In this document: piece after piece, positions 6,823-64,000 of the stretch
How the letters are laid out: each line of letters starts with the position of its first letter
How positions within the stretch are numbered: the stretch's first letter is position 1
Assembly: GCA_032718475.1 (NCBI GenBank)
Contig: JAUCBJ010007108.1
Location: 21,406 to 85,405, forward strand
Origin: Nemertoderma westbladi
Lineage: Eukaryota; Animalia; Xenacoelomorpha
Direction: 5' to 3'
Length of the DNA: 64,000 bases
The notes under the pieces: generated by a model
What the model saw: the letters and a program-made list of their open reading frames with translations, nothing else
Databases searched by the model: none
Told to the model about the DNA's origin: nothing
Program-made: the position numbers and the translations under genes

Positions 6823-6954
6823 AAGGATTTGCGCTTCGGGTTGAGCTAAAGCCGCTTCTTCTCTCTCATCCAGTTCTATATGTCTCTCCTCGAGCTGATT
6901 CTCCTCCGCTTGTTGTTGTAGACGCTCATCTAGAAACTCTTGTAAAGAGTAGGT

Positions 6955-18022: not shown

Positions 18023-20203
18023 AGTTGAATGCCTACTGCTATATTACAGTCCAAGCAAGTCTAGTAATTCAGTATTAACTGCTAGCCTAGTAATTAATTA
18101 CCGATACTGCTACTCAGTGTAGCGTGATATATATAATATTAGAATACCGGTATGCTTATGGTATATATAAGTATTATTACAGACTAGGTTTTTCACAGAA
18201 ACCGGTATATAATTTTAGCACAAATATATATAAATATATAATAGGCCTATCGTGGATACCGGTATGCAGTTTACACTTATAGTATATATAAGTATAATTA
18301 TTAACTAGAATTAATTACAGAATACCGGTATGATTTCAGCCTAAGTTTATGAAATAAATATAATAAGCCTATTGTAAATACCGGTATGTCAATTATTTTA
18401 GAATAATTGAATTTCTGAATTTTAAGGGTTACTTGGTTACTTTAACTTACTTTATTACCGTTATTTGAGCAGTAGTCCAACTGATATTGAGACCTAATTG
18501 TTATATGGCAGGCCTACTATTTATAAATCGTTTGAGTTGATTTATAATATATATATACCCGTTTAATGGGTTTTGTCAATGTTTGAAATAAATGTTATTA
18601 TTTCTGGGGGAGTCACTACACATAAGCAGTGCGCTCTCAGTGGAGCGCTACTTGTTAGACACTAAAACAAATAATTCTAATTTACCTAAGTTACTTAATA
18701 CTACAAATTACATACAATTCGGGTTGAGATTACAATCTCTAAATAAACACAAAATTTTAATGACAAATACACAAATACGAAATTTTTAGGGTAATTTTAC
18801 AAGAAGTCTACTAACCAGCCTAACAAAGGGTTAGAATATCTGGTTATTACAACGGACAGGTTACTACGGTATTTGAAAATAATAAGTAGTAGTAAATATA
18901 CTGCGCTGTCCAGATAGGAAAAATACCACCGCCTGACGACCTATAACCGTATCGCTATAGGTACTACGTTATGTATCACGGAGTGTCCCTACCTAGAAGT
19001 TAATTACCGCGGTCTACCAGAACCAACGTGCCTATTAACCACTTTACAACACAAATACACTGCCTACACACTAATTGCTTTCGGAAAGCACTGTACACTA
19101 AACCCTAAATTAGGTACAAGTACTTGTATAACAAATAATCAGTAGTTAAAAATACTTGAACAGCCAAAAGAACCACGGTATCTGCCGGAGTGACCAAAGC
19201 ACAAAATCTCCAGTCTTTACCTACGCCGAGCAGCCCTGATGTAGTACCGGGGTTAGTTTAACTATAACGGTATGTATAACAAACACAATTACTGTAGGAA
19301 TAAACTTGGGGAATGAATGTTGCGAATAATAGCATAAACTCTGAATAATAAATATTACGCTACGCGTACAAACTACTCAAACAAAATGCAGACCAAATAC
19401 TGACAGACTACTATCAAGCCTAAACAAACTACGGTATATGCAGACTCCGAAATGATTAGTTAGTATGCGTTCTAACCCAGTAGTACGACTTATTCTTTCA
19501 CAGGGGGTTTACCTCACAGCGCTTGAAGCCCCTACTTTCCTAACTTAGCACTTTATCGCACAGATGCTCTACACACACCGAAATTTCCTCAAACCCAACA
19601 ACAGCCAGACAACTATCCAGCCTACAAATTATCTAAATAAAATTATACGCTACCCGTACAGACTACACAAACAAAGTACAGAGCAAACGCTGGCGGACTC
19701 CTATCAAGCCTAAATAAACCACAGGACATGCAGTCTCCGAAATGGTTAAGTAGTATGCGTTCTAACCCAGTAGTACGACTTATTCTTTAGATGGGGGTTT
19801 ACCTTACAGCTATGGCTGCCCCTACTTCCTAACCGTTCTTTATCAGACATACACTCTACATGCACTGCAATCCGTTCAGACCTAATCAACAGTTAGCCAA
19901 CAGTCAAGCCTTCAAATTATCTGTACAATCTGAGCAGGCTTACACGCCTTCTGCTCAATACTGGCCTACAAATAAATAAAACTGACAGAAATAAGTAAGC
20001 TCCAAAAGAAACAAGGGGTGTACAGTCCCTAATCTCTTAAACAGCCTACCGGTATACAATACCACAATCGAATAATACTGTTGTACCTGTACTGTAAGTA
20101 AGTACCGGTCCGGATGATCAGGCAGTCAGGCCTACTGGTTACCGGTCGACCGGTACTTTCGACTAGATTGCTTACACCGCAATCCAGAAGCAATATCTGT
20201 TAT

Positions 20204-34900: not shown

Positions 34901-37900
34901 CACCACTACCTTTAACTTTTTCATTTTCCTGTTCATGAGCTTGGTCGAAGGGAATAGCTGAGAAACGTCGACTTGACTTCGATGCAACCCAATTTCCTTT
35001 ATTAAACACTTCGAATATGGTTTGTGGGAGAGACTTCATATCTAACAGAAATACACTTACCCATTGACTGTAGTGGTAATGGTCTAAACTAAAAAAGTAA
35101 ACAACTAGAGTCTCTAAACAACTTATGAATAGTTGGAAATTTTTCTCTCTGTGAGCTCGAATAAATACTAGAAATAGCCTCTGAATTCTCAAAATGAAGT
35201 CGTAGAACTGAAAGGTTGGATGCTCTGTTGCCATTAAGTCTCTCCAGTCTGAAAATGAATAACTATCAATGTGATTTGTATTACCATAGCTGGGTTGTCC
35301 GAAACATTGTAAGCATGGATACTATTGAGGGATTGGAAACATGGCCTCTGTTCATGGATGCATGATGTGCAGCCCATGAAACTGCTTGCTCTTTTGAGGT
35401 AATTTCACTTTCTAGAAGATTCTTAACCTCATGTATCCAAGTTTAATTGTCTTATATTGCATTTGTTAACAGATCGGGTGGAAAAATATGATTTGTTAGC
35501 ATGTTTCTACATCTATTTACAGAAGTATTCAAATTCAATGCAGGGAGAACTGTAAATGAAGTGGGAAGTTCTGGTTTTGTGGTTCTAGTTATACGTACTT
35601 CATCAACATGACGTGCCGCTCCTGCATTATTTTCATTTGGAAATTGAGTGATGGAGAGGCCAGTTCCATGAAATGATGACTTTGCTGTGGTTGATGATAG
35701 ATTCACATCAATATTGTCAAATGCTCCAGTTGTAAATAATCCATTACGTAAATTGATAGGGCAAACAATATCATCAATTTGTGCTCGTTCAGCAACAGTA
35801 CATGCAATAGAGTTTTCTATTTGCAATATTCGATCATATGATGAACATATCCCAAGTGAATGCATTTGGTCTATCAATACTTTGAGCCGGGTGGTGCTAT
35901 GAATTTTTAATCCAATATATTGGGGTAATGCTGGTTCCCTCTTTGTACAATGCCGAACATGGAGACCTCCAACTGACTGTGTCCTAGATTGTTTATAATT
36001 ATAAGTGATTAACTGAGAAATTGTGAGTCCTTCCTGTAAAATCTCAGCATCAGTATTAATACCAGAACCATACAAGAGCATTGATATTAGAAGTTGGAGA
36101 TAACGAGGAGATCCATCTATTTGGCATGAATCGGAAAAGGTGTCAGAAAATGATGGAACTTCATGTTGCAATAAATGATATCGACATAGATTTGCAGCTT
36201 TTGACAATATGGATAGATCAGCATCAACATCACGTACTGAAAATGCCGCCATGGTCATTTCTTTCATCGATTCTGGAAACACCAAAATTACATTTTTCCT
36301 ATCAGAAACAACCTGAACATTATATTGTTTGAAATGTTGAATAATGTCATCCTTTAGGTGAGTTTTATTCACTGAGACATAGTATCATTTGACAATAACA
36401 TTTGCGTAACATTTGTAACACGTAACATTTGAAAATCATTCATATCATTTGCCATGTTTGTCAAATTTTGCTGTGCATTTAGCGTGGAATAGTCATGTAA
36501 GTCGCCAGAGTCACCTTCACAAAAGATACAAGCTTTATTATTATGTAACTGGGTTCTTTTCTGCCGCTTAACATCATCATATATATTATTATCGTTTGAA
36601 CTCGCTATACTTTGTGAAGGACGCTGCAATGCTTTCGTTTGTTTAATTTACGTTCCAGTTTGTTATTGCAAAAAACCAACCGACAAGAATGGTGCCACTT
36701 GGCAACATTTCTCAGCAGATAAAATGCCTTGGTTTCTGCACTGAAACTTAATTCGATTGGTAACATTCCAATGTCTCTAAATTGATTGACATTGTCAAGA
36801 AAACGCTCATATATTCCGATGATTTCTTCAGAAGCTGGTGTATTGCACGGGTTATTAAGTTTTTCCGCGGAAGTTTTCTGACATATAATACATTTACTAA
36901 AGTCTAGAAGGGTCTCCATTGATTTACAAATTCGAGGTTTTAGGTTCAACTACTAGTAAACTATTCTCACCAAATTTATAGTATCATGTTTGTAGGTAAA
37001 TGGTAATGAATGTTAAGAATGTTAATGTTAAGAATGTTAATGTTAAGAATGTTAATGTTAAGAATGTCACATTGGTAGTAGTGTAGCGCGTTTCAATATT
37101 ATTCTGCTATTTTTAAAAGCTGTTTTAAAGCTAATACCTTTTGGAGGTATTACGTGGCCTTTTTTGAAATTATAAAAAATTTTATTTTATTTTATAGATT
37201 ATTATAATAATGCTTTAATAATTATAATATGCTTTTTTGGTATTGGTGAAAAAAGAATTTCTAGAACATTTAGTAGATATCAATATTGATGATATTATAA
37301 CAGTTTATAGTGTAATTAAACATCATTTGAGATTATTTGAACATCGTGTGGCGGTACAGTTTTATGAGTCTAAATTCAGCAAAGTGTCGCTGGAAAGAAT
37401 AATAAAATAAAACCCATAAAAAATATAGGGTTGTTTACCAACCAACCACACCTATAAATAACGTAACATTAAAAAAATCCGTTTGAAAGATTTTAAATAC
37501 TTACTATTACTAGCTACTGTAGTAAAAAATCCACTACCTTCATAAAAACGCAAGCTAATTAATAATGTTAACAAAAATTTTTTTTTTATTTTCAAAAAAT
37601 GCTAGCTAGTAAAAAAAACGCAGCTGCTATTAAAAAAAATATCTACTTAAGGTCCTAGAACATTCACCATTACCAAAAAAAACATTGAAAAACACAAAAA
37701 AATTAATGGTTAAAAAAATTGACAGAGACTGTCGACAGGGCGAAGTAGTGCCAATAAATAATAAACCAAAACAAAAGTTACATAATGTGAATTTCGAGGG
37801 AATAAGCAATAACCAGCTCACTAGTACCAGGATGTACTATTCTGTATCATAATTATAATTCTAGAATCGCAAAATGACTGTGACTATTATATTACACTCT

Positions 37901-43900: not shown

Positions 43901-46900
43901 ACAAATTACATATTGTAGCAAATATGCTACAAGGTGTTACAAAGCAAATTACATATTGTAGCGAATATGCTACAAGGTGTTACAAAACAAATTACATATT
44001 GTAGCAAATATGCTACAAGGTGTTACAAAACAAATTACATATTGTAGCGAATATGCTACAAGGTGTTACAAAACAAATTACATATTGTACCGAATATGAT
44101 TCAAATATAAATATTGATCTAAAATATAATATTTCGACATTTTATCATTCCATGGTATTGTTTGGCTCATTTATTATCCAAATTACGAAAAAAAATTATT
44201 TGTTCTCTCAAATTCGAAAATCATGCAGTAGAGGGTATGCAGTATTTTTTTATAAAAAAAAACTAGCAAAAACTAGTAAAAACTAGCTAGCTAGTATTAT
44301 AAATTATCCATTTAATCTATAATCTACTTAAATGCAATTTTACTGTATTTAATGTCATGGAAACATTACATTACATTAACATTTGTTGACCATAAAGTAT
44401 TCTTTACTTTTTCGCTCGAATATACCCCAGAATAGGGAGAAAAAGTTTAATTTTTTTCCCTAGGGAAAAAAAGTAACCCATAGGATTGCATTGATTTTAC
44501 TTTTTTCCCGGCGAAAAAAGTAAAGTAAAATATTTTTGGCGGAATTTCTCAAATTTTTTTACATATATTGAAAGAGCATCGACATAGAAAAGGTTTGCAA
44601 GTAATTTGATCAAAATTCATTCACACACTCATAAGTTATTACAACTTTAGTGTCTGCGTGGCGTACTCCAAAACGGAACTCAATACCCAATATTGGTTAT
44701 GTTGTTAAGCGGCTCTCTAATACACGTAATAAATATTCGAGAACACTAAATTATTTAACATTGAGTGATGCAGCATCGGGAGTTGAAGAATACAATAATT
44801 TGAATTTCAGTAACTATGGAAGCAATATAGTTAAATACTACAGTTCAATTAATTTGTAACACTACTGTACTGTATTTTATTAGAGAATTTAGCAACAAAC
44901 CAGTACCAATTTAAGAATAAAATTACGTATTACACGGGAAAAAAAACGTAGAACATTTTTTATTCAATGTTCTCTCGATCCCTTTTTAACCTCGCTGGCG
45001 CTCGGTAAATAAAATGTCTCGATAATAATGAAAAAAATATTCTACTTTTTTCCCCATGTAATTATTATTTGTTGTAAGTCGCTTTTTTTTTTGTCAAAGT
45101 CGTTAACAAGTTTAACAAAAAAGAGCACTTTTTGTGTGAACAAAAAAAGAAATGTTGAATTAAATTTCTAAGTAATAAATAAAACGACGTAAGTGGTGGC
45201 AAAAAGTAACATTTTTTCTCACATTGTTTCTTATTTGTCTCGCTACGCTCGCTAAATAATATCGTTAAATCTATAAAAACAAAAAAAGCCTACTTTTTAT
45301 AAGTCTACTTAAATATTTATTAATTTATTCGCAGCGGATGGATTGTGACACTCACGATGTATAAAGTCAATATCTTTGCAGCGGTCTTTATGACATTCGT
45401 GTCTATAATGTTTACGGTGAATGCAGTCTGCAGCATTCTGCTTATGAGCAAGGTTGGTTATCTTAAGTTATGTTATATAAAATATAAAAAATACAAGGTT
45501 TTTTAAATTCAATAATTGATATGGGGGGGACGAATTAATATATATCAATTTTGAATGGCCTCATCCAAAATGGGGAGAAAATATCGAACTTGCCTACCGC
45601 CTTACAGGTTGTTTTGAAGGACAATTTAATGAAGGATCCTATTGGTGAGCCTTTTCGAAACGTTTGACCTCCCGACTTCATCTTAGGTGATTCAGTATAA
45701 TTAATTCGCTTGCAATCTTTAGCCACAAGCATTTAACAAGCATTTAACAAGCATTTGACAATTTCACAAGCATACTGTAGGCCCTAGGTCTCTCTATGAA
45801 GAGTTATTCTTAAACTCTTAATTAAGTAAACTGTAATTTGATTGTGTCGTTGACATGGTGACGTGAAAAGGATTCAAAATCTGTAACAACATCTAAACTT
45901 GTTTGGAAATAGGTGAGATTGGTTGTTAAAAAGTTGCAACATCTGGTGTAATATCGACTTGTACATAGGCCGGCGATGCCACGGATTGATTCACACTTTA
46001 ATTCTTATTATAATTATTATTTACTAGAATTATCATTTACTTAAGAATTATTTTCTAGTGCACGTGCAGTAATAATGTACAGTATGAGTGTGTGGAGAAA
46101 TGTGTGGCAGATTGAAGAACTGCATACGGAACAGACACCATAAAATAAAACACCGCCCTCATAGGAGATAACTGCCAAGTTTCAACTTCAGCGGATTGTA
46201 CAGTAAATAACAAAATTTTCGAGAAAATGTTCACTTTCAGACATTTCACCCTCTAGAGGTAGACTGGGGAACTGTAGACGATGCTGCAGCTCAATAAAGA
46301 TTGAGCACATGTTGTAGTAGATACCTACCAAGTTTCAATCTAAACGGATTGTAAATAACAAAGTTAGAGAAGATGTTAACTTTCAGACATTTCGCCATCT
46401 AGCGGTAGACTGGGCAGACGACTCTGCGACTTCTTAAAGATACTGCCTATGCAGTAGTAGATAGCTGCCAAGTTTCAGCTCAAAAGCATTAAAAATAACC
46501 AAATAAGATCAAGTTTTTACTATCTCTAGCGGCAGACAGGTGAATTGTAGACGACTCTGCGGGATAGTACTTAAAGTCATATCTGAAAATTCCAATAAAA
46601 AGTCAACCGAAAAGTGAAATCCTGGGTATTCTTCACATGGGCGAAAATAGCTGTATCGGTCAACTGAAGTAGGCCTACACAGTAGATTAGTTGTTTTAAT
46701 ACGACTGGTAGGTGATTCGAGTTTTAAGAAAAATATGTTTACCTTTGTTTTCACTTTGTATCCACATACTGTATTTTGTAGCATTGTACTGTAGCAATAA
46801 AATAGGCCTACTACATTACTATCTTTATTCCTGAAAAAAGTATGATTTTACTTTATAGATTCACGGAGTTTACCGACAATCAGGAGCCAGTTTAACGAAA

Positions 46901-46978
46901 GCTCAACAGGAAATGACGACAGGAGCTATAAATAGTCCAGCCGTCCAAGCTGGTATCAGTCAGGCCTTGTCCAAATAG
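25885..46978 (+). CDS. SCAMP: Secretory carrier-associated membrane protein, short SCAMP4/5-like form, 6 coding exons, ~231 aa
   Basis: Exons 25885-25939, 26498-26626, 27018-27189, 28985-29086, 45335-45452 and 46859-46978 all have GT/AG boundaries with compatible phases (696 nt total). Hallmark motifs [52 protein letters not shown]. Confidence 0.92.
26498..26626 (+). CDS. SCAMP: SCAMP exon 2
   Basis: [42 protein letters not shown]; TAG acceptor, GTAAGT donor. Confidence 0.93.
27018..27189 (+). CDS. SCAMP: SCAMP exon 3 (TM1 end, TM2, E-peptide)
   Basis: [14 protein letters not shown]...[18 protein letters not shown]; TAG acceptor, GTTAGT donor. Confidence 0.93.
27305..27802. repeat. 41-bp minisatellite, ~12 copies (AGTAGGCCCCTAAGGGTAGTGCTAGGCTAGGATACAGCAGC)
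   Basis: Direct inspection; lies in SCAMP intron 3. Confidence 0.95.
28256..28961. repeat. 19-bp minisatellite, ~37 copies (CAACACAATACAGCAACTG)
   Basis: Direct inspection; occasional shorter or variant units. Confidence 0.95.
28985..29086 (+). CDS. SCAMP: SCAMP exon 4 (TM3)
   Basis: [33 protein letters not shown]; TTTCAG acceptor, GTAAGT donor. Confidence 0.93.
29961..31356 (+). mobile_element. Merlin (IS1595/ISXO2-like) DNA transposon with frameshifted transposase
   Basis: 26-bp perfect TIRs GGTATTACTACACCTTGGGTCACACC; 9-bp TSD CACGTGTTC (29952-29960 / 31357-31365). Motifs [44 protein letters not shown]. Confidence 0.93.
31615..32115 (+). pseudogene. CR1/L2-type LINE ORF2 fragment (end of endonuclease / linker)
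   Basis: Degenerate TLIDNILT...ISDHLPIF and [18 protein letters not shown]; continues at ~39690. Confidence 0.7.
32328..39134 (-). mobile_element. Academ-type DNA transposon (~6.8 kb), degraded, encoding transposase + XPG/PIN-like domain + Cys-rich C-terminus
   Basis: TAGTGGGGTCGCTTAAGG...CCTTAAGCGACCCCACTA termini, ~130-bp TIRs with subterminal repeats, 3-bp TSD GTA. ORF pieces 36949-32998 contain [38 protein letters not shown] and a Cys8-like cluster. Confidence 0.85.
39691..40800 (+). pseudogene. CR1/L2-type LINE reverse transcriptase fragment
   Basis: [46 protein letters not shown] with stops and frameshifts. Confidence 0.88.
40900..43080 (+). pseudogene. piggyBac (PGBD3-like) transposase remnant
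   Basis: LHFND...DRLFK...[25 protein letters not shown]; YFDNYFTS at ~42268; YN.H.GGV..LD at ~42587; Cys-rich C-terminus. TIRs not identified. Confidence 0.85.
41314..42214. repeat. 43-bp minisatellite, ~21 copies, inside the piggyBac transposase
   Basis: Unit GTTACTATGGCTCCTGATGAGCCAAACATAGGGGCCAGCTCCA; corresponds to transposase residues [14 protein letters not shown]. Confidence 0.95.
43178..44095. repeat. 43-bp minisatellite, ~21 copies, with internal hairpin TTGTAGC-N6-GCTACAA
   Basis: Unit TTGTAGCGAATATGCTACAAGGTGTTACAAAACAAATTACATA. Confidence 0.95.
45335..45452 (+). CDS. SCAMP: SCAMP exon 5 (TM4)
   Basis: (C)[39 protein letters not shown]; CGCAG acceptor, GTTGGT donor; phases fit exons 4 and 6. 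Confidence 0.88.
46859..46978 (+). CDS. SCAMP: SCAMP exon 6 (last coding exon)
   Basis: [39 protein letters not shown]; AATAAA at 47179. Confidence 0.9.
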   Translation: MHGVYRQSGASLTKAQQEMTTGAINSPAVQAGISQALSK

Positions 46979-49730: not shown

Positions 49731-51351
49731 TACTACTACTAGGATCGGCATGCTGCATTGCAGCTGCATTTTTAAGAATGCTGTGCCGGCTTGTCGACAA
49801 AATTGCGCCGCCACAACTCCCTATCACCCATGACATTTGCTAGATCATCCGCATCTTCAAAGCCAGTGTCCTTTAAGATGCGTCTCAAAAAAGTCATGGG
49901 CTGTCCACCATGCTTATTCACTCCATGAGGCTGCCAATGTACAAGGTTATGCACTGGCTGGTCCTCACGGCGAAAGCAATGACCTGCAAAGCGGAGGCGA
50001 TTTTGTTCTGGTGTCAAGCTTGGGGGAACCAATGAGACACCTCCAATGTTATAGTGTTTGGTTGGAGATGTGTGCATTGTACTTGACACAATGAACCCGG
50101 CGTAGCATTCTTGTGAATGTGCCATCCAGAGATTTGGTGTCCTCAGCAGTTAGAGCCCAGCATGGATTCCCATAGAGGAGTACTGGAACTATTGCTGCTC
50201 TAAATAATTGGACCTTAAGTTTCCGATTAATTCTCGGTGACTTCCAAATCCTGGAAAGCCTATTCAAGGATGCCCATGCCTTTCCCTTACGTATTCGAAG
50301 GTCTTCACCTGACTTCCGGATCCATGATCCCAGGTAACAGAAGTCATCCACATGCTCAAGCATACCATCCTTTGAGCTTATGCTCATCCGATCAGAGACT
50401 TGCTGAGGACTTTCAAAGTTAACTGTCAAAATTTTGGTCTTTCTGGAGTTAATAAAAGACCAACACTAGAAGAAGCATGTTCTAATGAGCTGCGGAGCCG
50501 TTGGGCTCCCTCTAGTGATTCTGAGAGTACTCATAAGTCATTGGCAAAGTCTAGATCAGTTAGGTATTTGGCAGGATTTCCTCGACTTCTGGAGCCAGTA
50601 GGTGGAGTTATCATCACCCCGTCATCATTATGATGATCTAAGGACATGCTTAGAACATAGTCAACCACAATTATGAACAAGAATGGTGCAAGTGTGTCTC
50701 CCTGGAAGACGCCCCATAACACTTCAAATGGTTCTGTGTCACCGTCAACAGTAGACACAAATGTTGTCGAACCATCGTATACTGATCTGATTGCTGCAAT
50801 AATTTCATCAGGAATCCCATGTAATGAAAGTATGCTGAACATACGTGAGCGAGAGACTGAATCAAAGGCCTTGAAGAAGTCAACAAAGATAACAGCCAGA
50901 TGCCTGCCTTTCTTTTTGATAACTCTTCAATTATCCTTCTAAGTGCCAAAATGGGCTCCATGGTCCCACGACCTTTTCGGAACCCATTCTGATTTCCACG
51001 GAGCAGTCTCTCAATGGGATCCCTGATGCGATGTAATATAATTCTATTGTATAGCTTTGCAGCAATCGAGATCAATGAGATTCCCCGAAAAGAACCATAG
51101 AGTGTTAGGTTGCCCTTCTTGGGAACTGGCACCAACTTATTTGTTTTCATTTCTTGTGGGACTCTTGATGTTCGGTACATGTCTACTATTATGGGATAGA
51201 TGAGCTTTAAACACTCAGGTATTTTAAAGACCTCAGGAGGAACACCATCTACTCCACTGGCACGATTGGTCTTAATGCTCTTTGCAGCAGCCTTCACTTC
51301 TGCAAAGGAGATATCGCCAATGGGAATATCTGGGAGTACAGACTCAGACAC
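49731..51351 (-). mobile_element. 5'-truncated RTE-clade LINE, copy 1 (frameshifted RT)
   Basis: QNGFRKGR, GVFQGDTLAPFLF, LDFANDL, RLRFAGHCFR; (TAG)n tail. Near-identical to 62511-64000. Confidence 0.9.
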
Positions 51352-52308: not shown

Positions 52309-52520
52309 AGGCAATAAATACCCTGTCATTATTGAGGAGCTTTTCTATCGGACAAGGGTAGCCTTTAGCCTACATTTGTGTTTTATGCCCTGGTGAAGGG
52401 TTTTGTTTATTATATTTTACTATACCTTAAGTCTACGGCCTAAACTGGCTAAACCTCAAAGAAAATGTACCACAGGTCAGACACAGTTATTAGTAATACT
52501 GCCCTAGTGCCCTGCAAGAT

Positions 52521-54187
52521 GGGTAAATCTTTTGCGTAGAGGTATAGCCTACATAGAGGCTACATGTAGGTATGTGTAGCCTACATGTAGATGCACGTGT
52601 AGGGTGAATGTAGGTAGGTGTAGGTAGGTCTTTAAAAACAACAATGATGAATGAATAGGCCTACACGGGGTACCCGGACCCGAACTTCCTCGATGAGATG
52701 CGAATGCGGCGAACGGGGGTGGTACCCGGAACAACCACGAAGAGATGCGCATATGGCGGGCGGTGGTACCCGAAACAACCAGGAGGAGATGCGAATACGT
52801 CGAATGGGGGTCCCCTGAATACCCACGAGACGGAGCCTATCAATACTACAGTACTGACAAAGGAAAAAACGACTGAACGATATACCGATACATACTGTAG
52901 ATCTTATGATCCTGCGGGTTCAGGCATGGAGGCTAATGACTTTGTATGGGCCGAACGGCCCGAACCTGATGTTTCCAGTCAAGGAGGAATCGACTAACGG
53001 TTAGGGTTAGAGCTCGTCGTCGGTGTCCATGAGGGTCTGAGGATGAGTGGGTAATTCAACAAAACGCTAACAATGATACCGGACTGACTGATTGAACCAG
53101 AGTGGCGATGGTAGTCGCTGATGTTTATATATATTATATATATCATGTATTGATTGTTAGTAGATATTTTTTTATAGTATTTGTTTATTAAATTGTCTTC
53201 AATGTCTATATTGATAATATTGTGTGCTGTGCTGATTTTACTTATTTTTCATTTTATAAATCTTGCTGTGGCCGTTTTAATCTACTAAACTGCCGTATCA
53301 ATTTCATGATATTTTAATGGATATGCAATTTAACTTCTTCTTTCTATTAACTTTCAATGCAATCAAATATAACTGTAAAGCTATTGACTTTCGTGTTATT
53401 GTTTTGCTGTTACTTCGAGATGGGATTTGAATCCCATCGGATTACTGATTAATTCCCATCATCGAGATGGGAATACTTTATAATGAAACAGTGTGGTGGT
53501 CCGCGGGATAGTGGGAAGGGATGGGACTGTTGCTGGTTGGTGGAATGTGACTGCCTGAAAAATTAAAACAAACAAAACTTCCAGACTTCTATATTTTTAC
53601 TTTCAAAACAAAACGTCCAAAACATTTCAATGCTGAAGTACTGTTCAAGTCCCATGGATGTATGGTTGATAAACAGATAAAGAGGGGCAGAGGGGGGTCA
53701 GGGTTTCTGGTAGACTATAATCCCCGCGATGATGGCTGTTATTGTTTAGGTTACTCTTACTCAATAAACATATAAATCAGAACGAGTTAATCTAATGGAA
53801 CGATGCCTTTCGTGGCGTTAGCATACTCAAATTTATTAGGGCATAATATTTATGACGAGTAAGGGACTTTAGTATAATCAGAACGCGATGTTTGATATTT
53901 ATACAGTACTGCAGTATGCAGTAAAACCTGTTGTCTGACAGCAGACAGGTCTGCATGTTGATGTACCGTATTGTACCGTGGAGATCAGAGATTATTGCCA
54001 TACATCCTGATTGACGACCGTGTATCACGTTACTGCAAGTTGACACATAAATTACATTAATATCTATGGGACTACACCTACCTACATTCACCCTACACGT
54101 GCATCTACATGTAGGCTACACATACCTACATGAAGCCTCTATGTAGGCTATACCTCTACGCAAAAGATATACCCAAAAGTTATACCC
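52521..54187. mobile_element. Non-autonomous DNA transposon, Mutator/MULE-like (~100-bp TIRs, 9-bp TSD)
   Basis: TIRs 52521-52623 and 54072-54187; TSD CTGCAAGAT (52512-52520 / 54188-54196); no transposase ORF. Confidence 0.8.
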
Positions 54188-54484
54188 CTGCAAGATTGCA
54201 CTTCCGGGTTGCCTAGCCTTATGATATCCTCTTTCAGTCCATAGACCATTACAGAATTACTGCTGTACTGCCAGACTGTTAACTGTTACAGTGTAAGGTA
54301 CCTTATCAGCATATCTTCTCATACATTCTTCGCGAGGTCTACCGGTAGGGTACTTAATCCATACTCCTGTCCTGCTGTCAGCCTGTAGTCCGTCATGTCA
54401 TGTCAGCATGTACCAGTGTAGGCCTACTGCAGTACTGAACTGACAGACTGATGTCAGGCAGGACAGCAGGATTACACAGACAGA

Positions 54485-55780
54485 CAGAGTCAATGAGAAT
54501 GGAATATTGCTAACTTCAAAAATGTCAGGTTACCATTATTCCAAAGTAATCCTGTAATCAGATAGCCTATTACTGTATTACAGTAGGCCTAATTAAGCAG
54601 TTAAGCTGCTAGTGTTAGTCAGTTAGTACTGTAGTAATCGAGTAAGCCATATAATATTATATTGTACAACAGTACAATACCAGGCATACCAGTAATATAT
54701 GCAAAAAAAATACTGTATATAGCAGTATAGTACAGTAGGCCTAGTATAGGCCTAGGCCTAAGTGGATTAGTTTAATTACTACTGTACTATGTGTACTACA
54801 ATGATGTAAACTGTAAATGAAATATTTATAAGTTAAGTCTGGTTTAGCTGTTTTGTAGCCTAATACTGTAATAAACATACTGCTGTACTGTACAGCTGTA
54901 CTTATCAACTTATACAATATCTCATTGAAGTTATGTAGTAATACATAATATTCAATGTTGGCAAATACAGGATGACAGTGGACAGGTCTCACATATCAGT
55001 TCATCAACCCGAAACTCGTGTTGCGTTTTATTCACACAACTTCAGAACTTTTATGATACCAACCACTTCGTGCAAACGGGGTGTAAATGCTACGCCGTAA
55101 CGCCGACAACCAACTGACCAATGCCGACAACCATCAGACCATTATTAAAGTTAATTAATGTTATTTATTAATTGAGGGAAAGGAACAGATTACAGTGGAA
55201 GGTTAGTCTAACCAAAACAATAAACGAGAGTTACGAACAGGTTACATTTCCATAGGCCTAGGCCTATTTGCTGTTGTCGGCAGTGGTTGCCGGTTGTCGG
55301 CGTAGTGTTTACACGGGTGCAAACGCTACATACATCCTATCCATTAAATTGGTCCAAGGTCTGTCTGTAGCATTCCCGACACGCGAGTAACAAAAAGAAC
55401 AGTGCTGGCAGGCTGGACAGCGTGTAAATGGTTTAGTTTCGCAGTCCGTTATCCTTTTATCAATTTTTTGTTTGTGTCTCGATAATGCAGATAGATATGT
55501 TGTTGTGTACTTTTTATCGCATAAATTACATTCCACTACTTTTTTTAATCGTCTCATTAGCATTACTGCTCCCATGTAACTACTGAACTACCATGAGAAA
55601 GAATAAGGCCCCTTTAAGGCTTAAAGTATTGAATTAACTTCGGTATACCTTGTATAATGAAACAGACAAGGCCAGCAAGGGTAGAATAGGCCTAGTGAAT
55701 ACAGATAGGCCTACTGAGATATGGAATAATGGTAACCTGAACTTTTTCTTGTTAGCGATATTCCATTCTCATTGACTATG
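54485..55780. mobile_element. Possible old non-autonomous DNA element with ~55-bp imperfect TIRs
   Basis: AGTCAATGAGAATGGAATAT...GGTTACCATTATTCCA is inverted at 55722-55777; internal BED-finger-like remnant VECNLCDKKY...LSRH. No TSD seen. Confidence 0.45.
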
Positions 55781-56053
55781 TGTTAAACAGGATTAACGTG
55801 ATTGGTTGCTGCTTAGTAGCAGCTTACTCTAACCATATTACTTGTTTTATACAAAATGGAATAATGTTAACTGGAAAAGCCACGATCTAAGCACCAGTGG
55901 CCTTGCGCAGCTCATCATGTGAGAAAAATTGTTACAGAGTAAAGTATCATACCCTTTGGACGACTTTACCTAAATTATTTCTACAGTTTTAGGAATGCAC
56001 ACAATACAGGGATAGGCAGACAAAGTCTATACCTATATACAACTGTAAAAATC

Positions 56054-59000
56054 ATGTCTGCAATATGTGATTGTCAATCCTTCCCTAGTGGGAAGCAGTT
56101 TGTGTTGTGTAATTGCTATGAAGTCAAGATTGCCTACATTGATGATTCGAAAAGAAACTTAATTTCGGTGGGGGTGAGCTCTACAGAAAGTATTGAGAGC
56201 TGCAGTGTTTCTCCTAATGGACAACTAATCACTGCTTGTACCTTGCAGGGCAGTGTATTTGTATGGAATGTGTCTGGTGAAATGCTTCAGAGCATCCCTC
56301 ATTCCAAAATGCAAACGGGTTCATCGCTAATGGAAGAACGACGTCGTATTATTTTTCATCCCACTAATTCCAGGTTGATCGCCACTTGCTCCTTTGATAA
56401 AACTCTGACTGTAATGTTATTGGGTGATTCTGGTTATAATTCCTTAATTTCATGTATTCATGCGGATCATAAAAGCACAGTGACTGATGTAGCATTTTCT
56501 CCTGATGGCCACTTTTTGGGTACCTGCTGTGGTGATAAAACTGTGCATATGTGGCTTTTCATGGAAACCAATAGTAAATCGCCAGGATTACTTTCCAATA
56601 ACTCATTTGAAGAAACAAACAAAACACTTGGACTTCGTTTAGTTCATATGTGGACTTATGGAAGACGTGAAATGCGTACAACATGGAGTTTGGCATGGTC
56701 GCGTGATTCATCCCTTATTGTTGCTGGAGGTGAGAGTGGTTGCTTTTGTATTAGAGCGTCAAATGGTAGTCCAGTATGGGATCGTTGTGATATCCGTACA
56801 CGTCGAATTGCATTCAGTCCGGTAAATAATGAAATTGCTGTTGTTTGTTGGCAGTCTTTAACCATTAATATCTTGGAAAGAAATACAGGAAAACTGATTC
56901 GTGAAATAACAGCAAAGCCAGGCAATGGTTTGATTCAGTGCATAGGTTACACACCGCCTGGTGATAAGTTGTTTGTTGGCTTTACAGAAGGGGCTTGGAA
57001 GCTGGTGGAACTGGTAGGTCACCAATTTGCAAATCTGCCTCCAAAAGGAGGTACAAACTTAGAGGTACATCTTAGTAACCTGATAGATTCCAGTTTTCAA
57101 TTACTCTCAGAAGAACTTCAACAGCTCTTCTATAACTTGATTTTACAAACTGAATATAAGAACATATTTGATATAGAATATCTGTGTCATCTTTGGAATA
57201 GAGACGAAGTGTACATTAGAAATGTTGTCAACGAATTTGCAAATAGATCATTGATTTATTGTAATCAATATAACAATGAACTATATTTACACCCACTATT
57301 ATCACCATACATTATACAAGGTGCGCATGTAGAAATATTATCCCGTGGACCTGCTGCACTGGCAGCTTATAAATCCGCTGCAGCCAAAGGAATAACAGTA
57401 GTCAAGCGACGTCGTATTATGATTGTTGGCCAAGAATATTCGGGAAAAACAAGTTTGATGAAGGCTTTGACTGGTCAAGATTTTGATGCCAATGAGGGAA
57501 TTACTAATGGAATAAACACAAATACGCATATCAAAATTGATAGTGCGAAATGTACACAGTGGTTATTGCTAAAAGATGGGTCAGCATTTGTGGATGATTT
57601 TGATACAATTTTGGCCAAACAAACAGCTGCAACACTTTTATTACGAAATAAGACACCAGCAAGTGACACTGCATTACTTTCAAAACCGGAGTCAACATTT
57701 AGAGTTACAGATACATATGGGTTATATTCAGTTCAATCAATTGATTCAAATATTCAATCCCATTTGCCCCCTGGAGAATCACTATATGGTGAAGTTGATG
57801 TAATGGAAGAACCCATATACGAAAATATTAATGCCGGTGCACCTGATGTGTATTTTGAAATGAAAGAATGTGATTCGGGGTGTTTCAGCAGCATGCCTGA
57901 TGGAATTAAAAGGAAGTTTGAGAGTATGCTAAAGGCTGCTGGAAGTTACTCAGCATTCTTAGACAGCATAGACACTGAATGTAGAGAACGCAAAGCAACA
58001 ATTTGGGACTTTGGTGGTCAGCAAGTCTACTACACAACTCATCAGTTATTTTTGACGAACCGTGCTGTCTTCATTATAGCGTTTGACATGTCAAAACAAC
58101 TTGATGAACTAACTAAAATACGTTTTAGACCTCATAGCAATGATTGTAGAGAACTTGAATATGTAGAAGAAGATATGAAAAACATAGAGTTTATTGATTT
58201 ATGGCTATCGAGCATTTTTTCAACTTTACCAATGAAGGATGGCCACCCAATTGGTCTTCGTTGTCCAGATGTGTTCATCGTTGGTACACACAAAGGCTAC
58301 TTAGACTCAACTAAAGCAACTTTCGATAACATGAAATCCTACATTTCTGCATTTATTAAAGATAAACCCTACAATAAGTACTTAAATATCAAATACTTTG
58401 CCGTGGAGAATAATCGAATGATGCGACTGCCAGGTGACAATGAGATTGAGAGGTTGCGTGCATGTATTGTTCAGGCAATGGAACATGAACAGTACAGTGA
58501 TATAATTCCTGTTAAATACTCAAAATTTGAACATCTTTTGAACGACCTGATTAGGAACAATCGATTATATTTAACAGTATCTGAATTACGAGATTCTTTG
58601 CATCTAATCGGAGTCGAGTTTAGCAGTGATGGTCTCACCAGAATGCTTAACTTATATCACGATATAGGGTTAATTTTTTATTTTCATGAAGACAATTTGA
58701 CTGAAATTGTTGTATTGCAACCTCAGTTTCTCATCAATGTATTTCGAAGGGTTATTACTGTTAGTGATGTAAAATTGGACGAACATATTCAGTTATGGAA
58801 TGACTTAGATCACAGAGGAATACTGAATGATAAACTTATTGACTACATGTGGTCGGATATTCTAGAACATAAATTATGTTTTCTTAAAATTATGAAGCAT
58901 TTTGATTTACTATGTGAAAGCACACCCCGCACTGGTTCCCCACAAGATGAATTATTCTATTATGTCCCCTGTCGGTTAAAACGTTTCCGCGACCAGACTA

Positions 59001-60166
59001 CCTCTAAGTTTAAACCCAAAAGCGATGTTGAATTTTACCTTATTTTTCATGGATTCCTGCCGCAAGGATTGTACAATAAGCTCGTAAAACGAACCATCGA
59101 ATGGTCGTACAGGGTAGGTGATAATAATTTAGAGCCGCAACTGTTTCACCATGTTGCCTCGATATATTTAGACAAATATCACCAGCTAATCCTTCAATCA
59201 TTTCCAAGATATTCGAGAATTAAAGTTCAAATCATTCGCAAGGTTGCTGAATCACGCAGTAACATTGCTCACAGTGAGACGGCACATACTCCCAAATCCA
59301 CAGTTGTAACGAAGGTTAAGGACATCATGGGGGACAATGTAAGCTCTTTACTGACGGCGTGTAAGATAAGCAACGTATCTTTCGAACTAAAACTACAGTG
59401 TCCTTGCAAATCCCGTTGCAGGCTGCACCCACGTTCTAACAGTTGCCAGGAAGAGGTTTGTCTTCATTTTCTCAACTTGAATGATTGTCTGTTTAACCCA
59501 GATGTATCTTGCGAATATCAAGCACTTATTGACACAGCCCCATTTAAAGCGTGGTTCCGTTGTATAGATGATGCTGATAACCAAGTTGTAGGTAAAGATT
59601 TCAGAGATTTACTTAAATCAAAGCAGCACGAAGTAGCGAATTCAATAGAATTGCCGAAGCTGCTTGTATTCCTAGAAAGTAAAGACATCTTGACTAACCA
59701 AAATGTTGGTTTAATTACTTCTCGCGCGACACCCTTCGAGAAAGGGTCTGAGTTGATAAAATTGATGAAAGATGGATCACAGCATGACTTTGACACTTTC
59801 TGCTGTGGATTGAGAGCAACACAGCAGAACAGCTTAGCTCACTTGCTGAGTGATGGTAGTAATGCTGATGTTGAGAACAATGCTTCGTTCAGGAAACAAT
59901 TAAAACGATGTAAATATTATTTGTGTGAGAATATGGAGAACTACTGTGTAGTGCTAACATACTTGGTGAGTAAATTTGTTCTGTCAGATTTCAATGTTGA
60001 ATCTATTCGGCGAAAAGAAACAACCTTTGAGGTGGTTGGGGAACTTATTAATTCAATCATTAGACGGTCCCACGACGATTTTCTTATATTTCTCGATGCT
60101 TTGAGGAAAACAAACCAAGTTCACTTAGTCAAACTTATAGAAGAGTCTGTTGTAGAAAATGTTTGA
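56054..60166 (+). CDS. ROCO-family protein, 1370 aa: WD40 repeats - APAF-1-like winged helix - Roc GTPase - COR - CARD - CARD
   Basis: WD motifs (SVSPNGQLITAC..VFVWN; HKSTVTDVAFSPDGHFLGTCCGDKTVHMW). Roc G1 GQEYSGKTS, G2 TNGI, G3 WDFGGQQVYYTTHQLFL, G4 VGTHK. COR LYHDIGLIFYF..VVLQPQFLINVF..YYVPCRL. Two CARD-like repeats ending FCCGLRATQQNSLAHLL and FLDALRKTNQVHLVKLI. AATAAA at 60483. Confidence 0.92.
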   Translation: MSAICDCQSFPSGKQFVLCNCYEVKIAYIDDSKRNLISVGVSSTESIESCSVSPNGQLITACTLQGSVFVWNVSGEMLQSIPHSKMQTGSSLMEERRRIIFHPTNSRLIATCSFDKTLTVMLLGDSGYNSLISCIHADHKSTVTDVAFSPDGHFLGTCCGDKTVHMWLFMETNSKSPGLLSNNSFEETNKTLGLRLVHMWTYGRREMRTTWSLAWSRDSSLIVAGGESGCFCIRASNGSPVWDRCDIRTRRIAFSPVNNEIAVVCWQSLTINILERNTGKLIREITAKPGNGLIQCIGYTPPGDKLFVGFTEGAWKLVELVGHQFANLPPKGGTNLEVHLSNLIDSSFQLLSEELQQLFYNLILQTEYKNIFDIEYLCHLWNRDEVYIRNVVNEFANRSLIYCNQYNNELYLHPLLSPYIIQGAHVEILSRGPAALAAYKSAAAKGITVVKRRRIMIVGQEYSGKTSLMKALTGQDFDANEGITNGINTNTHIKIDSAKCTQWLLLKDGSAFVDDFDTILAKQTAATLLLRNKTPASDTALLSKPESTFRVTDTYGLYSVQSIDSNIQSHLPPGESLYGEVDVMEEPIYENINAGAPDVYFEMKECDSGCFSSMPDGIKRKFESMLKAAGSYSAFLDSIDTECRERKATIWDFGGQQVYYTTHQLFLTNRAVFIIAFDMSKQLDELTKIRFRPHSNDCRELEYVEEDMKNIEFIDLWLSSIFSTLPMKDGHPIGLRCPDVFIVGTHKGYLDSTKATFDNMKSYISAFIKDKPYNKYLNIKYFAVENNRMMRLPGDNEIERLRACIVQAMEHEQYSDIIPVKYSKFEHLLNDLIRNNRLYLTVSELRDSLHLIGVEFSSDGLTRMLNLYHDIGLIFYFHEDNLTEIVVLQPQFLINVFRRVITVSDVKLDEHIQLWNDLDHRGILNDKLIDYMWSDILEHKLCFLKIMKHFDLLCESTPRTGSPQDELFYYVPCRLKRFRDQTTSKFKPKSDVEFYLIFHGFLPQGLYNKLVKRTIEWSYRVGDNNLEPQLFHHVASIYLDKYHQLILQSFPRYSRIKVQIIRKVAESRSNIAHSETAHTPKSTVVTKVKDIMGDNVSSLLTACKISNVSFELKLQCPCKSRCRLHPRSNSCQEEVCLHFLNLNDCLFNPDVSCEYQALIDTAPFKAWFRCIDDADNQVVGKDFRDLLKSKQHEVANSIELPKLLVFLESKDILTNQNVGLITSRATPFEKGSELIKLMKDGSQHDFDTFCCGLRATQQNSLAHLLSDGSNADVENNASFRKQLKRCKYYLCENMENYCVVLTYLVSKFVLSDFNVESIRRKETTFEVVGELINSIIRRSHDDFLIFLDALRKTNQVHLVKLIEESVVENV

Positions 60167-62510: not shown

Positions 62511-64000
62511 ATACTACTACTAGGATCGGCATGCTGCATTGCAGCTGCATTTTTAAGAATGCTGTGCCGGCTTGTCAACAAAATTGCACCACCACAACTC
62601 CCTATCACCCATGACATTTGCTAGATCATCCGCATCTTTAAGGCCAGTGTCCTTTAAGATGCGTCTCAAGAAAGTCATGGGCTGTCCACCATGCTTATTC
62701 ACTCCATGAGGCTGCCAAAGTACAAGATTATGCACTGGCTGGTCCTCACGGCGAAAGCAATGTCCTGCAAAGCGGAGGCGATTTTGTTCTAGTGTCAAGC
62801 TTGGGGGAACCAATGAGACACCTCCAATGTTATATAGTGTCTGGTTGGAGATGTGTGCATTGTACTTGACACAATGAACCCGGCGTAGCATTCTTGTGAA
62901 TGTGCCATCCAGATATTTGGTGTCCTCAGCAGTTAGAGCCCAGCATGGACTCCCGTAGAGGAGTACTGGAACTACTGCTGCTCTAAATAATCGGACCTTA
63001 AGTTTCCGATTAATTCTCGGTGACTTCCAAATCCTGGAAAGCCTATTCAAGGCTGCCCATGCCTTTCCCTTACGTATTCGAAGGTCCTCACCTGACTTCC
63101 GGATCCATGATCCCAGGTAACAGAAGTCGTCCACATGCTCAAGCATACCATCCTTTGAGCTTATGCTCATCCGATCAGAGACTTGCTGAGGACTTTCAAA
63201 GTTAACTGTCAGAATTTTGGTCTTTATGGAGTTAATAAAAAGACCAACACTAGAAGCAGCATGTTCTAATGAGCTGAGGAGCCGTTGGGCTCCCTCTAAT
63301 GATTCTGAGAGTACTCCTAAGTCATCAGCAAAGTCTAGATCAGTTAGGTACTTGGCAGGATTTCCTCGACTTCTGGAGCCAGTAGGTGGAGATATCATCA
63401 CCCCATCATCATTATAATGATCTAAGGACATGCGTAGAACATAGTCAACAACAATTATGAACAAGAATGGTGCAAGTGTGCCTCCCTGGAGGACGCCCCA
63501 TAACACTTCAAATGGTTCTGTGTCACCGTCAACAGTAGACACAAATGTTGTCGAACCATCGTATACTGATCTGATTGCTGCAATAATTTCATCAGGAATC
63601 CCATATAATGAAAGTATGCTGAACATACGTGAGCGAGAGACTGAATCAAAGGCCTTGAAGAAGTCAACAAAGATAACAGCCAGATGCCTGTCTTTCTTTT
63701 TTGATAACTCTTCAATTATCCTTCTAAGTGCCAAAATGGGCTCCATGGTCCCACGACCTTTACGGAACCCATTCTGATTTCCACGGAGCAGTCTCTCAAT
63801 GGGATCCCTGATGCGATTTAATAGAATCCTATTGTATAGCTTTGCAGCAATCAAGATCAATGAGATTCCCCGAAAAGAACCATAGAGGTGTTAGGTTGCC
63901 CTTCTTGGGAACTGGCACCAACTTATTTGTTTTCATTTTTTGTGGGACTCTTGTTGTTCGGTACATGTCTACTATGATGGGATAGATGAGCTTTAAACAC
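62511..64000 (-). mobile_element. RTE-clade LINE, copy 2 (435-aa open RT C-terminal ORF 62553-63860; runs off the window)
   Basis: FVDFFKAFDSV, GVLQGGTLAPFLF, LDFADDL, RLRFAGHCFR; same 3' end and (TAG)n tail as copy 1. Confidence 0.92.

What the first reader, a model, noticed from the sequence alone, without database searches (positions are those of the whole stretch)
56054..60166. ROCO protein resembling an inverted apoptosome scaffold: WD40 - WHD - Roc - COR - CARD - CARD
Seen: N-terminal WD40 repeats (aa ~1-320), an APAF-1-like winged helix (~340-420), Roc with intact G1-G4 motifs, COR, and two tandem CARD-like domains (~1180-1365); no kinase, no LRR. Known: APAF-1 is CARD - NB-ARC(+WHD) - WD40; ROCO proteins dimerise through COR; invertebrate ROCOs show domain shuffling including death-fold domains. 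I do not know this exact combination. Inference: a sensor (WD40) - switch (Roc-COR GTPase in place of the STAND ATPase) - effector (2xCARD) receptor that could recruit caspases or CARD adaptors, i.e. a GTP-driven NLR/apoptosome analogue.
Basis: partly seen in the sequence, partly recalled or inferred. Interest (0 to 1): 0.85.

Follow-up and report, generated by a model that had tools for sequence, protein, structure and literature searches.

The report
Roco GTPase with apoptosome-type parts
An intact animal reading frame joins a seven-bladed propeller, a fragment resembling the cell-death protein APAF-1, an LRRK2-type GTPase module and two caspase-recruitment domains, so it likely encodes an inside-the-cell danger sensor that would gather cell-death proteases; it is an unusual new combination within a large, little-studied invertebrate family that swaps its end domains.

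Summary
The architecture is real. One 1370-codon open frame (56054-60166, +) encodes a seven-bladed WD40 propeller, an APAF-1-like winged helix (the weakest call), Roc, COR and two CARDs, with no kinase, LRR or STAND ATPase. One correction: the G motifs are not all intact. G1-G3 are, but G4 lacks its acidic residue (THKG). The Roc-COR core belongs to a big group of mostly kinase-less Roco proteins of marine and freshwater invertebrates. At least 57 of 151 relatives carry a death-fold domain, 5 a CARD, 5 a caspase, 3 a NACHT. A mussel protein has independently reached propeller-like-Roc-COR-CARD-CARD. None of the 151 has WD40 or the winged helix. The sensor-Roc-COR-effector idea is already in print for bacteria, and Roco-with-CARD for Trichoplax; this scan also noted Roco-CARD and Roco-caspase genes on other DNA. 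Best reading: a nucleotide-gated sensor-scaffold whose tandem CARDs recruit a CARD caspase or adaptor. It is unlikely to form an apoptosome ring, because the ring-forming domain is missing, and GTP breaks up the one bacterial Roco dimer studied in the papers I read. New variant of a known kind; function untested.

The parts
56054..60166 (+). Single open frame, 1370 aa (P0001); no intron inside the coding stretch as read
   Evidence: ATG in an A-rich context; an upstream exon cannot be excluded
55970..55992 (+). Possible 3' splice site (branch-like motif, pyrimidines, AG at 55985-86 or 55991-92); the frame is open from 55943, so a 5' UTR exon or a coding exon could splice in
   Evidence: read from the sequence; inference, untested
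56054..57016 (+). Seven-bladed WD40 propeller, aa 1-321; candidate sensor or bait
57056..57316 (+). APAF-1-type winged-helix domain, aa about 335-421, with no nucleotide-binding domain before it and no HD2 after it; His413 aligns to APAF-1 His438 of the LHD motif, the following Asp is Pro
   Evidence: role of His438 from PMC4691890 passages
57323..57391 (+). Helical linker before Roc (aa 424-446), in the place of the alpha0 hinge of Roco proteins; conserved in the relatives
   Evidence: alpha0 role from PMC11052575 section 6
57407..58489 (+). Roc GTPase domain, aa about 452-812: G1 57428-57451, G2 Thr 57503-57505, G3 58007-58021, G4 58286-58297 (acidic residue replaced by Gly), G5 58400-58411; low-confidence insertion aa 538-603 (57665-57862)
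58508..59569 (+). COR-A (aa about 819-975) and COR-B (aa about 985-1172), ending in a Cys/His cluster (59399-59512) that likely binds zinc
   Evidence: C1116 in 93 of 95, H1138 in 72 of 77, C1153 in 74 of 76 aligned relatives; zinc binding is inferred
59603..59857 (+). CARD 1, aa 1184-1268
   Evidence: Pfam 27.0 bits; CED-3 CARD E 7.6e-4
59894..60148 (+). CARD 2, aa 1281-1365; 32% identical to CARD 1 with no DNA-level likeness left, so an old internal duplication is likely
   Evidence: Pfam 37.4 bits
60483..60637 (+). Three AATAAA motifs (60483, 60533, 60632), candidate polyadenylation signals; weak evidence in AT-rich DNA

Best explanation
This is a kinase-less Roco protein with a WD40 propeller and an APAF-1-like winged helix in front and two CARDs behind, and it likely works as a cytosolic danger sensor whose nucleotide switch would control when the CARDs recruit a CARD-bearing caspase or adaptor. 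Shown: the domains, their order, intact G1-G3, a changed G4, and membership of an invertebrate Roc-COR group whose two ends are swapped freely. Inferred step 1: the propeller plus winged helix sit where the LRR sits in bacterial Roco, ahead of the alpha0 hinge, and bind a microbial ligand, a damage signal or a pathogen effector (possibly as a bait). Inferred step 2: binding and nucleotide exchange swing this front end away and change the Roc-COR monomer-dimer state; by analogy with C. tepidum Roco the GTP form would be an open monomer, so activation may be a release from a closed dimer and not GTP-driven clustering. Inferred step 3: the freed tandem CARDs seed a CARD-CARD assembly with an initiator caspase or a RAIDD-like adaptor; the tandem pair would supply the valency that APAF-1 gets from its ring. 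The winged helix is most likely a relic of a shuffled APAF-1-like gene that now serves as a spacer or packing surface.
For: Domains and folds. Family context: among 151 Roc-COR relatives at least 47 have Death, 7 DED, 5 CARD (57 with any death fold), 18 TIR, 5 caspase, 6 HEPN, 5 GT4, 3 NACHT, and only 2 a kinase and 2 LRRs (tallied; lower bounds, as some rows showed only five families). All 20 relatives looked up by name are invertebrates or invertebrate chordates. Direct caspase fusions after COR (Owenia, Lingula, Exaiptasia) put a caspase in the slot that holds the CARDs here. A mussel protein has a propeller-like N-terminus, Roc-COR and two CARDs (P0095) and lies elsewhere on the tree, which points to repeated arrival at this layout. 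The two-CARD profile ranks CED-3 (E 6.6e-7), CED-4, RAIDD and APAF-1 first. 44 of 47 family-conserved columns are kept on a long branch, as expected under selection. Published parallel: bacterial LRR-AP-GTPase-COR-effector systems (PMC8195603 section 15), including beta-propeller versions in its supplement.
Against: No function has been tested for this group in any paper I found. No ligand or partner is known, and the host genome is not held, so I could not look for its caspases or paralogs. G4 lacks the acidic residue and P-loop position 462 is Tyr, seen in 0 of 116 relatives, so guanine specificity or switching may be altered. No relative closer than 40% identity exists in the collections searched, so the age and conservation of the WD40-WHD fusion are unknown. 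CARDs also serve in non-caspase signalling (BCL10 and ASC are on the same hit list). The hinge and monomer-dimer model comes from one bacterial protein at about 14% structural-alignment identity.
Confidence: 0.5

Rival explanations
1. It is an inhibitor or a nucleotide-insensitive scaffold: the CARDs bind and hold back caspases or adaptors, and the Roc domain no longer switches on GTP.
For: G4 is THKG and the P-loop carries a Tyr found in none of 116 relatives; the winged helix has lost its ATPase and the Asp of the LHD motif. CARD-only inhibitors of caspase-1 exist in mammals (recalled, no call).
Against: P-loop Lys and Thr, the switch I Thr, DxxG and the following Gln are all kept; G4-G5 are described as variable in Roc domains (PMC6337361 passage) and 43 of 143 relatives also lack the Asp.
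Confidence: 0.17
2. It is a signalling scaffold that switches on inflammation-type gene expression or trafficking through a CARD adaptor, without direct caspase activation or cell death.
For: A conserved relative group among the best hits ends in Death plus TIR, like MyD88 (PMC9334734 and PMC5094078 passages). Human Rocos act in trafficking and signalling (PMC4104024 passages). BCL10 and ASC CARDs also match.
Against: The best CARD matches are apoptosome and PIDDosome components, and caspases are fused in the same position in 4 of 151 relatives, with a fifth carrying a caspase piece in front.
Confidence: 0.17
3. It is a true GTP-gated apoptosome analogue in which the winged helix keeps its APAF-1 job, latching the nucleotide site through His413, and release leads to a defined multimeric platform.
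For: His413 aligns to APAF-1 His438, which binds ADP in the autoinhibited state (PMC4691890); the winged helix lies directly before the alpha0 hinge; winged helix and CARDs both have apoptosome proteins as best solved matches.
Against: The NBD, which makes three quarters of the ring interface, is absent, and in APAF-1 the winged helix follows the ATPase; the propeller is not specifically APAF-1-like; the aromatic-His pair may be kept simply as part of the fold (inference); GTP monomerises the bacterial model protein.
Confidence: 0.08
4. It is a young or idle chimera (or an assembly join) made by shuffling in a transposon-rich region, and it has no selected function as a whole.
For: No relative has this front end; the gene is single-copy in the window and surrounded by LINEs and inverted-repeat elements; the coding stretch has no intron while the neighbouring SCAMP gene has many.
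Against: All five junctions are in frame over 1370 codons; seven complete blades; 44 of 47 conserved columns kept (median relative 91%); the CARD pair is an old duplication; no N and no long repeat at the junctions.
Confidence: 0.08

Closest known systems
Invertebrate kinase-less Roc-COR proteins with death-fold or enzymatic ends, e.g. Neuralized-Roc-COR-Death-TIR of Acanthaster, Branchiostoma and oyster (P0002, P0015, P0003); noted in PMC5094078 and PMC9334734 (passages)
   Same: Roc-COR at 30-40% identity, same pre-Roc helix motif, long insertion in Roc, Cys/His cluster after COR-B, C-terminal death fold
   Different: WD40 plus winged helix in front, two CARDs and no TIR behind; long branch with no supported sister
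Sinanodonta woodiana KAL3889163.1 (P0095), unnamed: NHL-like N-terminus, Roc, COR, CARD, CARD
   Same: Propeller-like front, Roc-COR, two C-terminal CARDs
   Different: Front end is related to NHL-repeat paralogs and not to this WD40; no winged helix detected; its CARDs are 65% identical to each other and only 17-27% to these; separate place on the tree
Trichoplax adhaerens ROCO set (Civiero et al. 2014, PMC4104024; passages and figure legend only)
   Same: Roc-COR flanked by CARD, death, TPR, LRR and AAA domains in an early animal
   Different: WD40 is not named in the main text or legend (0 occurrences); the figure itself was not visible, so exact layouts could not be compared
Bacterial AP-GTPase (Roc)-COR counter-invader proteins (Kaur et al. 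2021, PMC8195603; section 15 and supplement searches)
   Same: Repeat sensor, Roc-COR, variable effector including caspase and TIR; beta-propeller+AP-GTPase layouts are listed
   Different: Bacterial; predicted and not tested there; no winged-helix or CARD layout matched my search strings
APAF-1 / CED-4 / Dark apoptosome scaffolds
   Same: Has CARD, a homologous winged helix and WD40 repeats
   Different: No NB-ARC ATPase, HD1 core or HD2; one propeller at the N-terminus; two CARDs at the C-terminus; a GTPase switch
Human ROCO proteins LRRK1, LRRK2, DAPK1, MFHAS1 and C. tepidum Roco
   Same: Roc-COR fold; DAPK1 also ends in a death-fold domain after COR (PMC6337361 passage)
   Different: No kinase, LRR or ankyrin repeats; WD40 is N-terminal here and C-terminal in LRRK2

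Membership tests
ROCO proteins | Roc G-domain with G1, G2 and G3 motifs | tested here: met
   Pfam Roc above cut-off; K465, T466, T484, D652, G655 match the family consensus
ROCO proteins | COR domain directly after Roc | tested here: met
   Pfam COR-A 44.4 bits; model matches LRRK1/2 and C. tepidum Roc-COR
ROCO proteins | Guanine-specifying G4/G5 (variable in Roc domains, so not strictly defining) | tested here: inconclusive
   G4 is THKG without the acidic residue, G5 region fits the relatives; variability noted in PMC6337361
ROCO proteins | GTP binding, hydrolysis and a nucleotide-dependent monomer-dimer cycle | not testable with these tools
   needs purified protein
Invertebrate kinase-less Roc-COR + death-fold group (no formal name found) | Shared pre-Roc helix motif, Roc insertion, COR-B Cys/His cluster, C-terminal death fold or effector | tested here: met
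APAF-1 / CED-4 family (AP-ATPase STAND) | NB-ARC nucleotide-binding domain with HD1 | tested here: not met
   No NB-ARC among the Pfam rows shown; the APAF-1 match starts at APAF-1 residue 340; aa 1-321 are fully taken by the propeller; none in 86 flanking frames
APAF-1 / CED-4 family (AP-ATPase STAND) | Winged-helix domain with the LHD/MHD motif | tested here: inconclusive
   Homology to the APAF-1 winged helix is good by sequence (E 1.3e-5) but below the Pfam cut-off, the model is low-confidence and the motif is LHP
APAF-1 / CED-4 family (AP-ATPase STAND) | Order CARD - NB-ARC - WD40 | tested here: not met
   Order is WD40 - WHD - Roc - COR - CARD - CARD
NLR (NACHT-LRR) | NACHT ATPase and LRRs | tested here: not met
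   Neither among the Pfam rows shown; the domains found cover the chain
LRRK / DAPK1 / MFHAS1 subfamilies | Kinase domain, or N-terminal LRRs | tested here: not met
CARD death-fold domains | Profile match over the whole six-helix domain | tested here: met
   Both repeats match profile positions 1-84 and 2-84 of 85 above the cut-off; not folded here

The most novel reading that the evidence does not exclude
An animal has rebuilt an apoptosome-like caspase activator on a Roco GTPase: an APAF-1-derived winged helix was kept as a working latch between a WD40 sensor and the Roc switch, the Roc site has changed nucleotide preference, and the tandem CARDs fire an initiator caspase. It would be the first death receptor gated by an LRRK2-type switch, and the wider invertebrate Roc-COR group, with its swapped bait-like N-termini, would be a third class of intracellular immune receptors beside NACHT and NB-ARC proteins.
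Probability: 0.15. Interest if true: 0.8.

Novelty: new variant of a known kind. Interest (0 to 1): 0.48.

Why it matters
If the best reading holds, this is a compact, single-frame, kinase-free Roco with an easy read-out (CARD clustering, caspase activity). It makes a standing question testable: what does the Roc-COR nucleotide cycle switch on, the monomer or the dimer, when no kinase is attached? It also adds a case to the view that invertebrates use Roc-COR as an alternative to STAND ATPases in intracellular immunity, and shows a STAND winged helix detached from its ATPase and placed in front of a GTPase. The limits: it is a single sequence with no close relative, the family-level idea is already published for bacteria, and CARD-bearing Rocos are known from Trichoplax and the databases.

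Tried and rejected
No whole genome is held, so paralogs and host caspases could not be sought. Sequencing runs: no RNA holder listed; this says nothing on expression. COR-COR pair prediction (aa 814-1175, two copies): no answer, score 0.00, alignment not used; no evidence either way. Searches for a relative with the same front end found none: 13 hits among 4580 candidates for the whole protein, 0 of 389 for aa 290-480, 78 generic WD40 hits at 19-35% identity apart from one short 51% patch among 5796 shorter candidates, no WD40 or winged-helix match in the 151 Roc-COR relatives; only the best 150 of 4863 hits were visible and the word-based searches are weak at 30% identity, so absence is not shown. 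Metagenome contig scan: 79 pattern matches, none confirmed. ESM Atlas: best scores 0.84 (bacterial WD40-Roc clusters) and 0.87 (unnamed; plant NLR winged helices at 0.82 and 0.79), all under 0.9, leads only. The fold searches of the N-terminal model were filled by the propeller and did not test the winged helix. Idea rejected: all non-Roc parts come from one permuted APAF-1; the propeller ranks APAF-1 about 19th, level with unrelated WD40 proteins. Idea rejected: common descent with the mussel two-CARD protein; AU test p 6e-74, but the pair was named after the tree was seen and a two-row clade is a strict constraint; the tests with P0041 and P0151 did not finish. Idea rejected: nesting in an intron of SCAMP; its last exon ends near 46978. 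Idea not supported: missing exons nearby; 84 of 97 flanking + strand frames of 35 aa or more (13 inside a LINE left out) plus 2 extra frames gave only a SCAMP exon and a weak DUF7234 hit. Literature: nine searches for the architecture or family listed no paper describing WD40-WHD-Roc-COR-CARD-CARD; most subscription papers are not in the library, including the Roco evolution reviews by Marin cited.
Full report
Observation. The window holds one open frame at 56054-60166 on the + strand, 1370 aa, with no stop and no N. An open frame of this length has a chance of about 1e-42 at the local base composition. The contig is animal DNA: a multi-exon SCAMP gene lies at about 26.5-47.0 kb, with Pao and LINE retroelements around it. 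No whole genome is held. The frame stays open back to 55943 and a possible splice acceptor lies at 55970-55992, so an upstream exon cannot be excluded; no Pfam domain that could belong to this gene was found in 86 flanking frames.

Domains. Pfam finds WD40, Roc, COR-A and CARD above their cut-offs and an APAF-1-like winged helix below its cut-off. The N-terminal 321 residues align blade by blade with 37 WD40 proteins and fold as a confident seven-bladed propeller (Z 36.7, rmsd 1.9, 283 aligned to 2ymu). Residues 315-420 match APAF-1 340-445 at E 1.3e-5, and the six best solved matches are all APAF-1; the model of this part had no aligned relatives and is low-confidence, though its helix-hairpin pattern fits a winged helix. 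Residues 420-1175, folded with 67 relatives, give a confident Roc-COR model (pLDDT 83.7, pTM 0.86) that matches LRRK1, C. tepidum Roco and LRRK2. The two C-terminal repeats each pass the CARD cut-off, are 32% identical to each other with no DNA likeness left, and as a pair rank CED-3, CED-4, RAIDD and APAF-1 CARDs first among solved structures. I did not fold the CARDs.

Nucleotide site. In an alignment with 149 relatives (2 of 151 left out for length), the P-loop Lys is shared by 115 of 116, the switch I Thr by 113 of 117, the DxxG Asp by 139 of 141 and the following Gln by 117 of 141. Two places deviate. G4 is THKG, where 100 of 143 relatives have Asp, 17 Asn, 14 Glu and 5 Gly. Position 462 in the P-loop is Tyr, seen in 0 of 116. 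G4 and G5 set guanine specificity and vary in Roc domains (PMC6337361, passages). So 'intact G1-G4' is only partly right: the site probably binds nucleotide, but its specificity is open. Overall the protein keeps 44 of 47 family-conserved columns, against a median of 91% in 129 relatives, while sitting on a long branch (0.94 changes per column, best identity 40%). That fits long-term selection on Roc-COR; it does not date the WD40-WHD fusion.

Family. A full-library search with aa 330-1370 gave 4863 hits at E up to 0.001; the best 150 match through Roc-COR. With one more, 151 proteins were scanned against Pfam. At least 57 carry a death-fold domain (47 Death, 7 DED, 5 CARD), 18 TIR, 5 caspase, 6 HEPN, 5 GT4, 3 NACHT; only 2 show a kinase and 2 LRRs (tally; lower bounds, since larger calls show five families per protein and thresholds were 1e-3 or 1e-4; many records are partial gene models). 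The 20 looked up by name come from echinoderms, amphioxus, a hemichordate, bivalves, an annelid, a brachiopod and cnidarians. Their N-termini vary widely: Neuralized, ankyrin, macro, fn3, NHL, SH2, Ets, TAZ, KIX, OTU, Ras, DED, NACHT. None has WD40 or the winged helix. A C-terminal CARD after COR occurs in Amphiura (P0041), Branchiostoma (P0151) and, doubled and with an NHL-like front end, in the mussel Sinanodonta (P0095). Trees (130 of 150 rows; 50 chosen rows) place the window protein apart from all three with no supported sister, and an AU test rejects pairing it with P0095 (pair named after the tree was seen). The propeller-Roc-COR-2xCARD layout has therefore likely arisen more than once.

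Mechanism. In C. tepidum Roco, GTP binding swings the N-terminal LRR away by about 135 degrees on the alpha0 helix and breaks the dimer (PMC11052575, abstract and section 6; PMC5714945, abstract). The window protein keeps a helical linker in that place, and its propeller and winged helix occupy the LRR's position. I infer a closed resting state, opened by ligand and nucleotide exchange, that frees the two CARDs to seed a CARD-CARD assembly with an initiator caspase or adaptor (0.5). Direct caspase fusions after COR in four relatives support a caspase as the downstream partner. A ring like the apoptosome is unlikely: three quarters of the APAF-1 ring interface is NBD against NBD and the winged helix plays a supporting part (PMC4691890, passages), and there is no NBD here. 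The winged helix keeps the His that binds ADP in autoinhibited APAF-1 but not the Asp after it; a working latch on the Roc site is possible but unlikely (0.08). The other rivals are an inhibitor or non-switching scaffold (0.17), a non-caspase signalling scaffold (0.17) and an idle chimera or assembly join (0.08). The many host-protein pieces in front of Roc-COR in the relatives recall the integrated bait domains of plant NLRs (recalled, no call); the WD40-WHD front end could be such a bait, though some of those records may be gene-model joins.

What is known. Roc-COR with CARD or death domains is reported for Trichoplax (PMC4104024, passages and legend; PMC11378527, passages). Roc-COR-Death-TIR proteins are noted in sea anemones and Aplysia (PMC5094078 and PMC9334734, passages), and a ROC-caspase in Owenia (PMC11463336, passages). 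The reading of LRR-Roc-COR-effector proteins as NLR-like counter-invader systems is published for bacteria (PMC8195603, section 15), and its supplement lists beta-propeller+AP-GTPase layouts (41 string occurrences in one file; one file was cut when stored). PMC6321704 and PMC7159879 (passages) added background only. Nine literature searches listed no paper with this exact layout; subscription papers and the Trichoplax figure were not visible. This scan has noted Roco-CARD and Roco-caspase genes in other genomes and a caspase-APAF-1 fusion in this one; these are unchecked AI notes and are not counted as support.

Verdict. The gene is real as sequence and correctly described apart from G4. It is a ROCO protein, not an APAF-1 or NLR family member. 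It is a new variant of a known kind: the WD40 plus orphan APAF-1 winged helix in front of Roc-COR, with two CARDs behind, was not found elsewhere, but the family swaps its ends freely and a close analogue exists in a mussel. Interest 0.48; 0.8 if the latch and caspase activation were shown.

Noticed in passing
window 26500-46978 (+): Multi-exon SCAMP gene: exon pieces near 26506, 27158, 28980, 45333 and a last exon at about 46860-46978, with transposons in its introns.
   Followed up: partly
window 49731-51214 and 62512-64000 (-): Two copies of a LINE reverse-transcriptase fragment, 96.6% identical and in the same orientation, flank the Roco gene; they could favour duplication or loss of the 11-kb block between them.
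   Followed up: partly
window 52520-54175 and 54484-55781: Two elements with terminal inverted repeats (104 nt at 98%, 60 nt at 88%); the second ends 272 nt before the start codon.
   Followed up: no
window 9955-18043 (-): Pao/BEL retrotransposon frames with DUF1759, Peptidase_A17, integrase zinc finger and DUF5641 matches, broken by stops.
   Followed up: no
window 3991-8268 (-): Two long frames (987 and 437 aa, one stop between them) with no Pfam match, just downstream of the Pao element; unexplained.
   Followed up: no
window 33297-36384 (-) and 30171-31096 (+): Broken transposase-like frames inside the SCAMP intron; the first has only a weak DUF6589 match (E 0.03), the second looks IS1595/Merlin-like by eye (recalled, not scanned).
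   Followed up: no
proteins P0047, P0254, P0247, P0082: Striking unnamed relatives: Bcl-2-Roc-COR-caspase (Owenia), HEPN-ATPase-Roc-COR-caspase (Exaiptasia), NACHT-Roc-COR-Death (Montipora), NACHT-Roc-COR-trypsin (Actinia). Gene models not checked.
   Followed up: partly
proteins P0028, P0105, P0060, P0110, P0103, P0118, P0145, P0024, P0073: Pieces of common host regulators (TAZ, KIX, CREB-binding, Ets, SH2, PARP14 RRM, macro, CAP-Gly) sit in front of Roc-COR in relatives, a pattern like integrated bait domains; some may be gene-model joins.
   Followed up: no
proteins P0095, P0121, P0144, P0117: A clade with a shared NHL-like front end and swapped C-termini (two CARDs, two Death domains, HEPN); the two looked up are from the mussel Sinanodonta.
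   Followed up: partly
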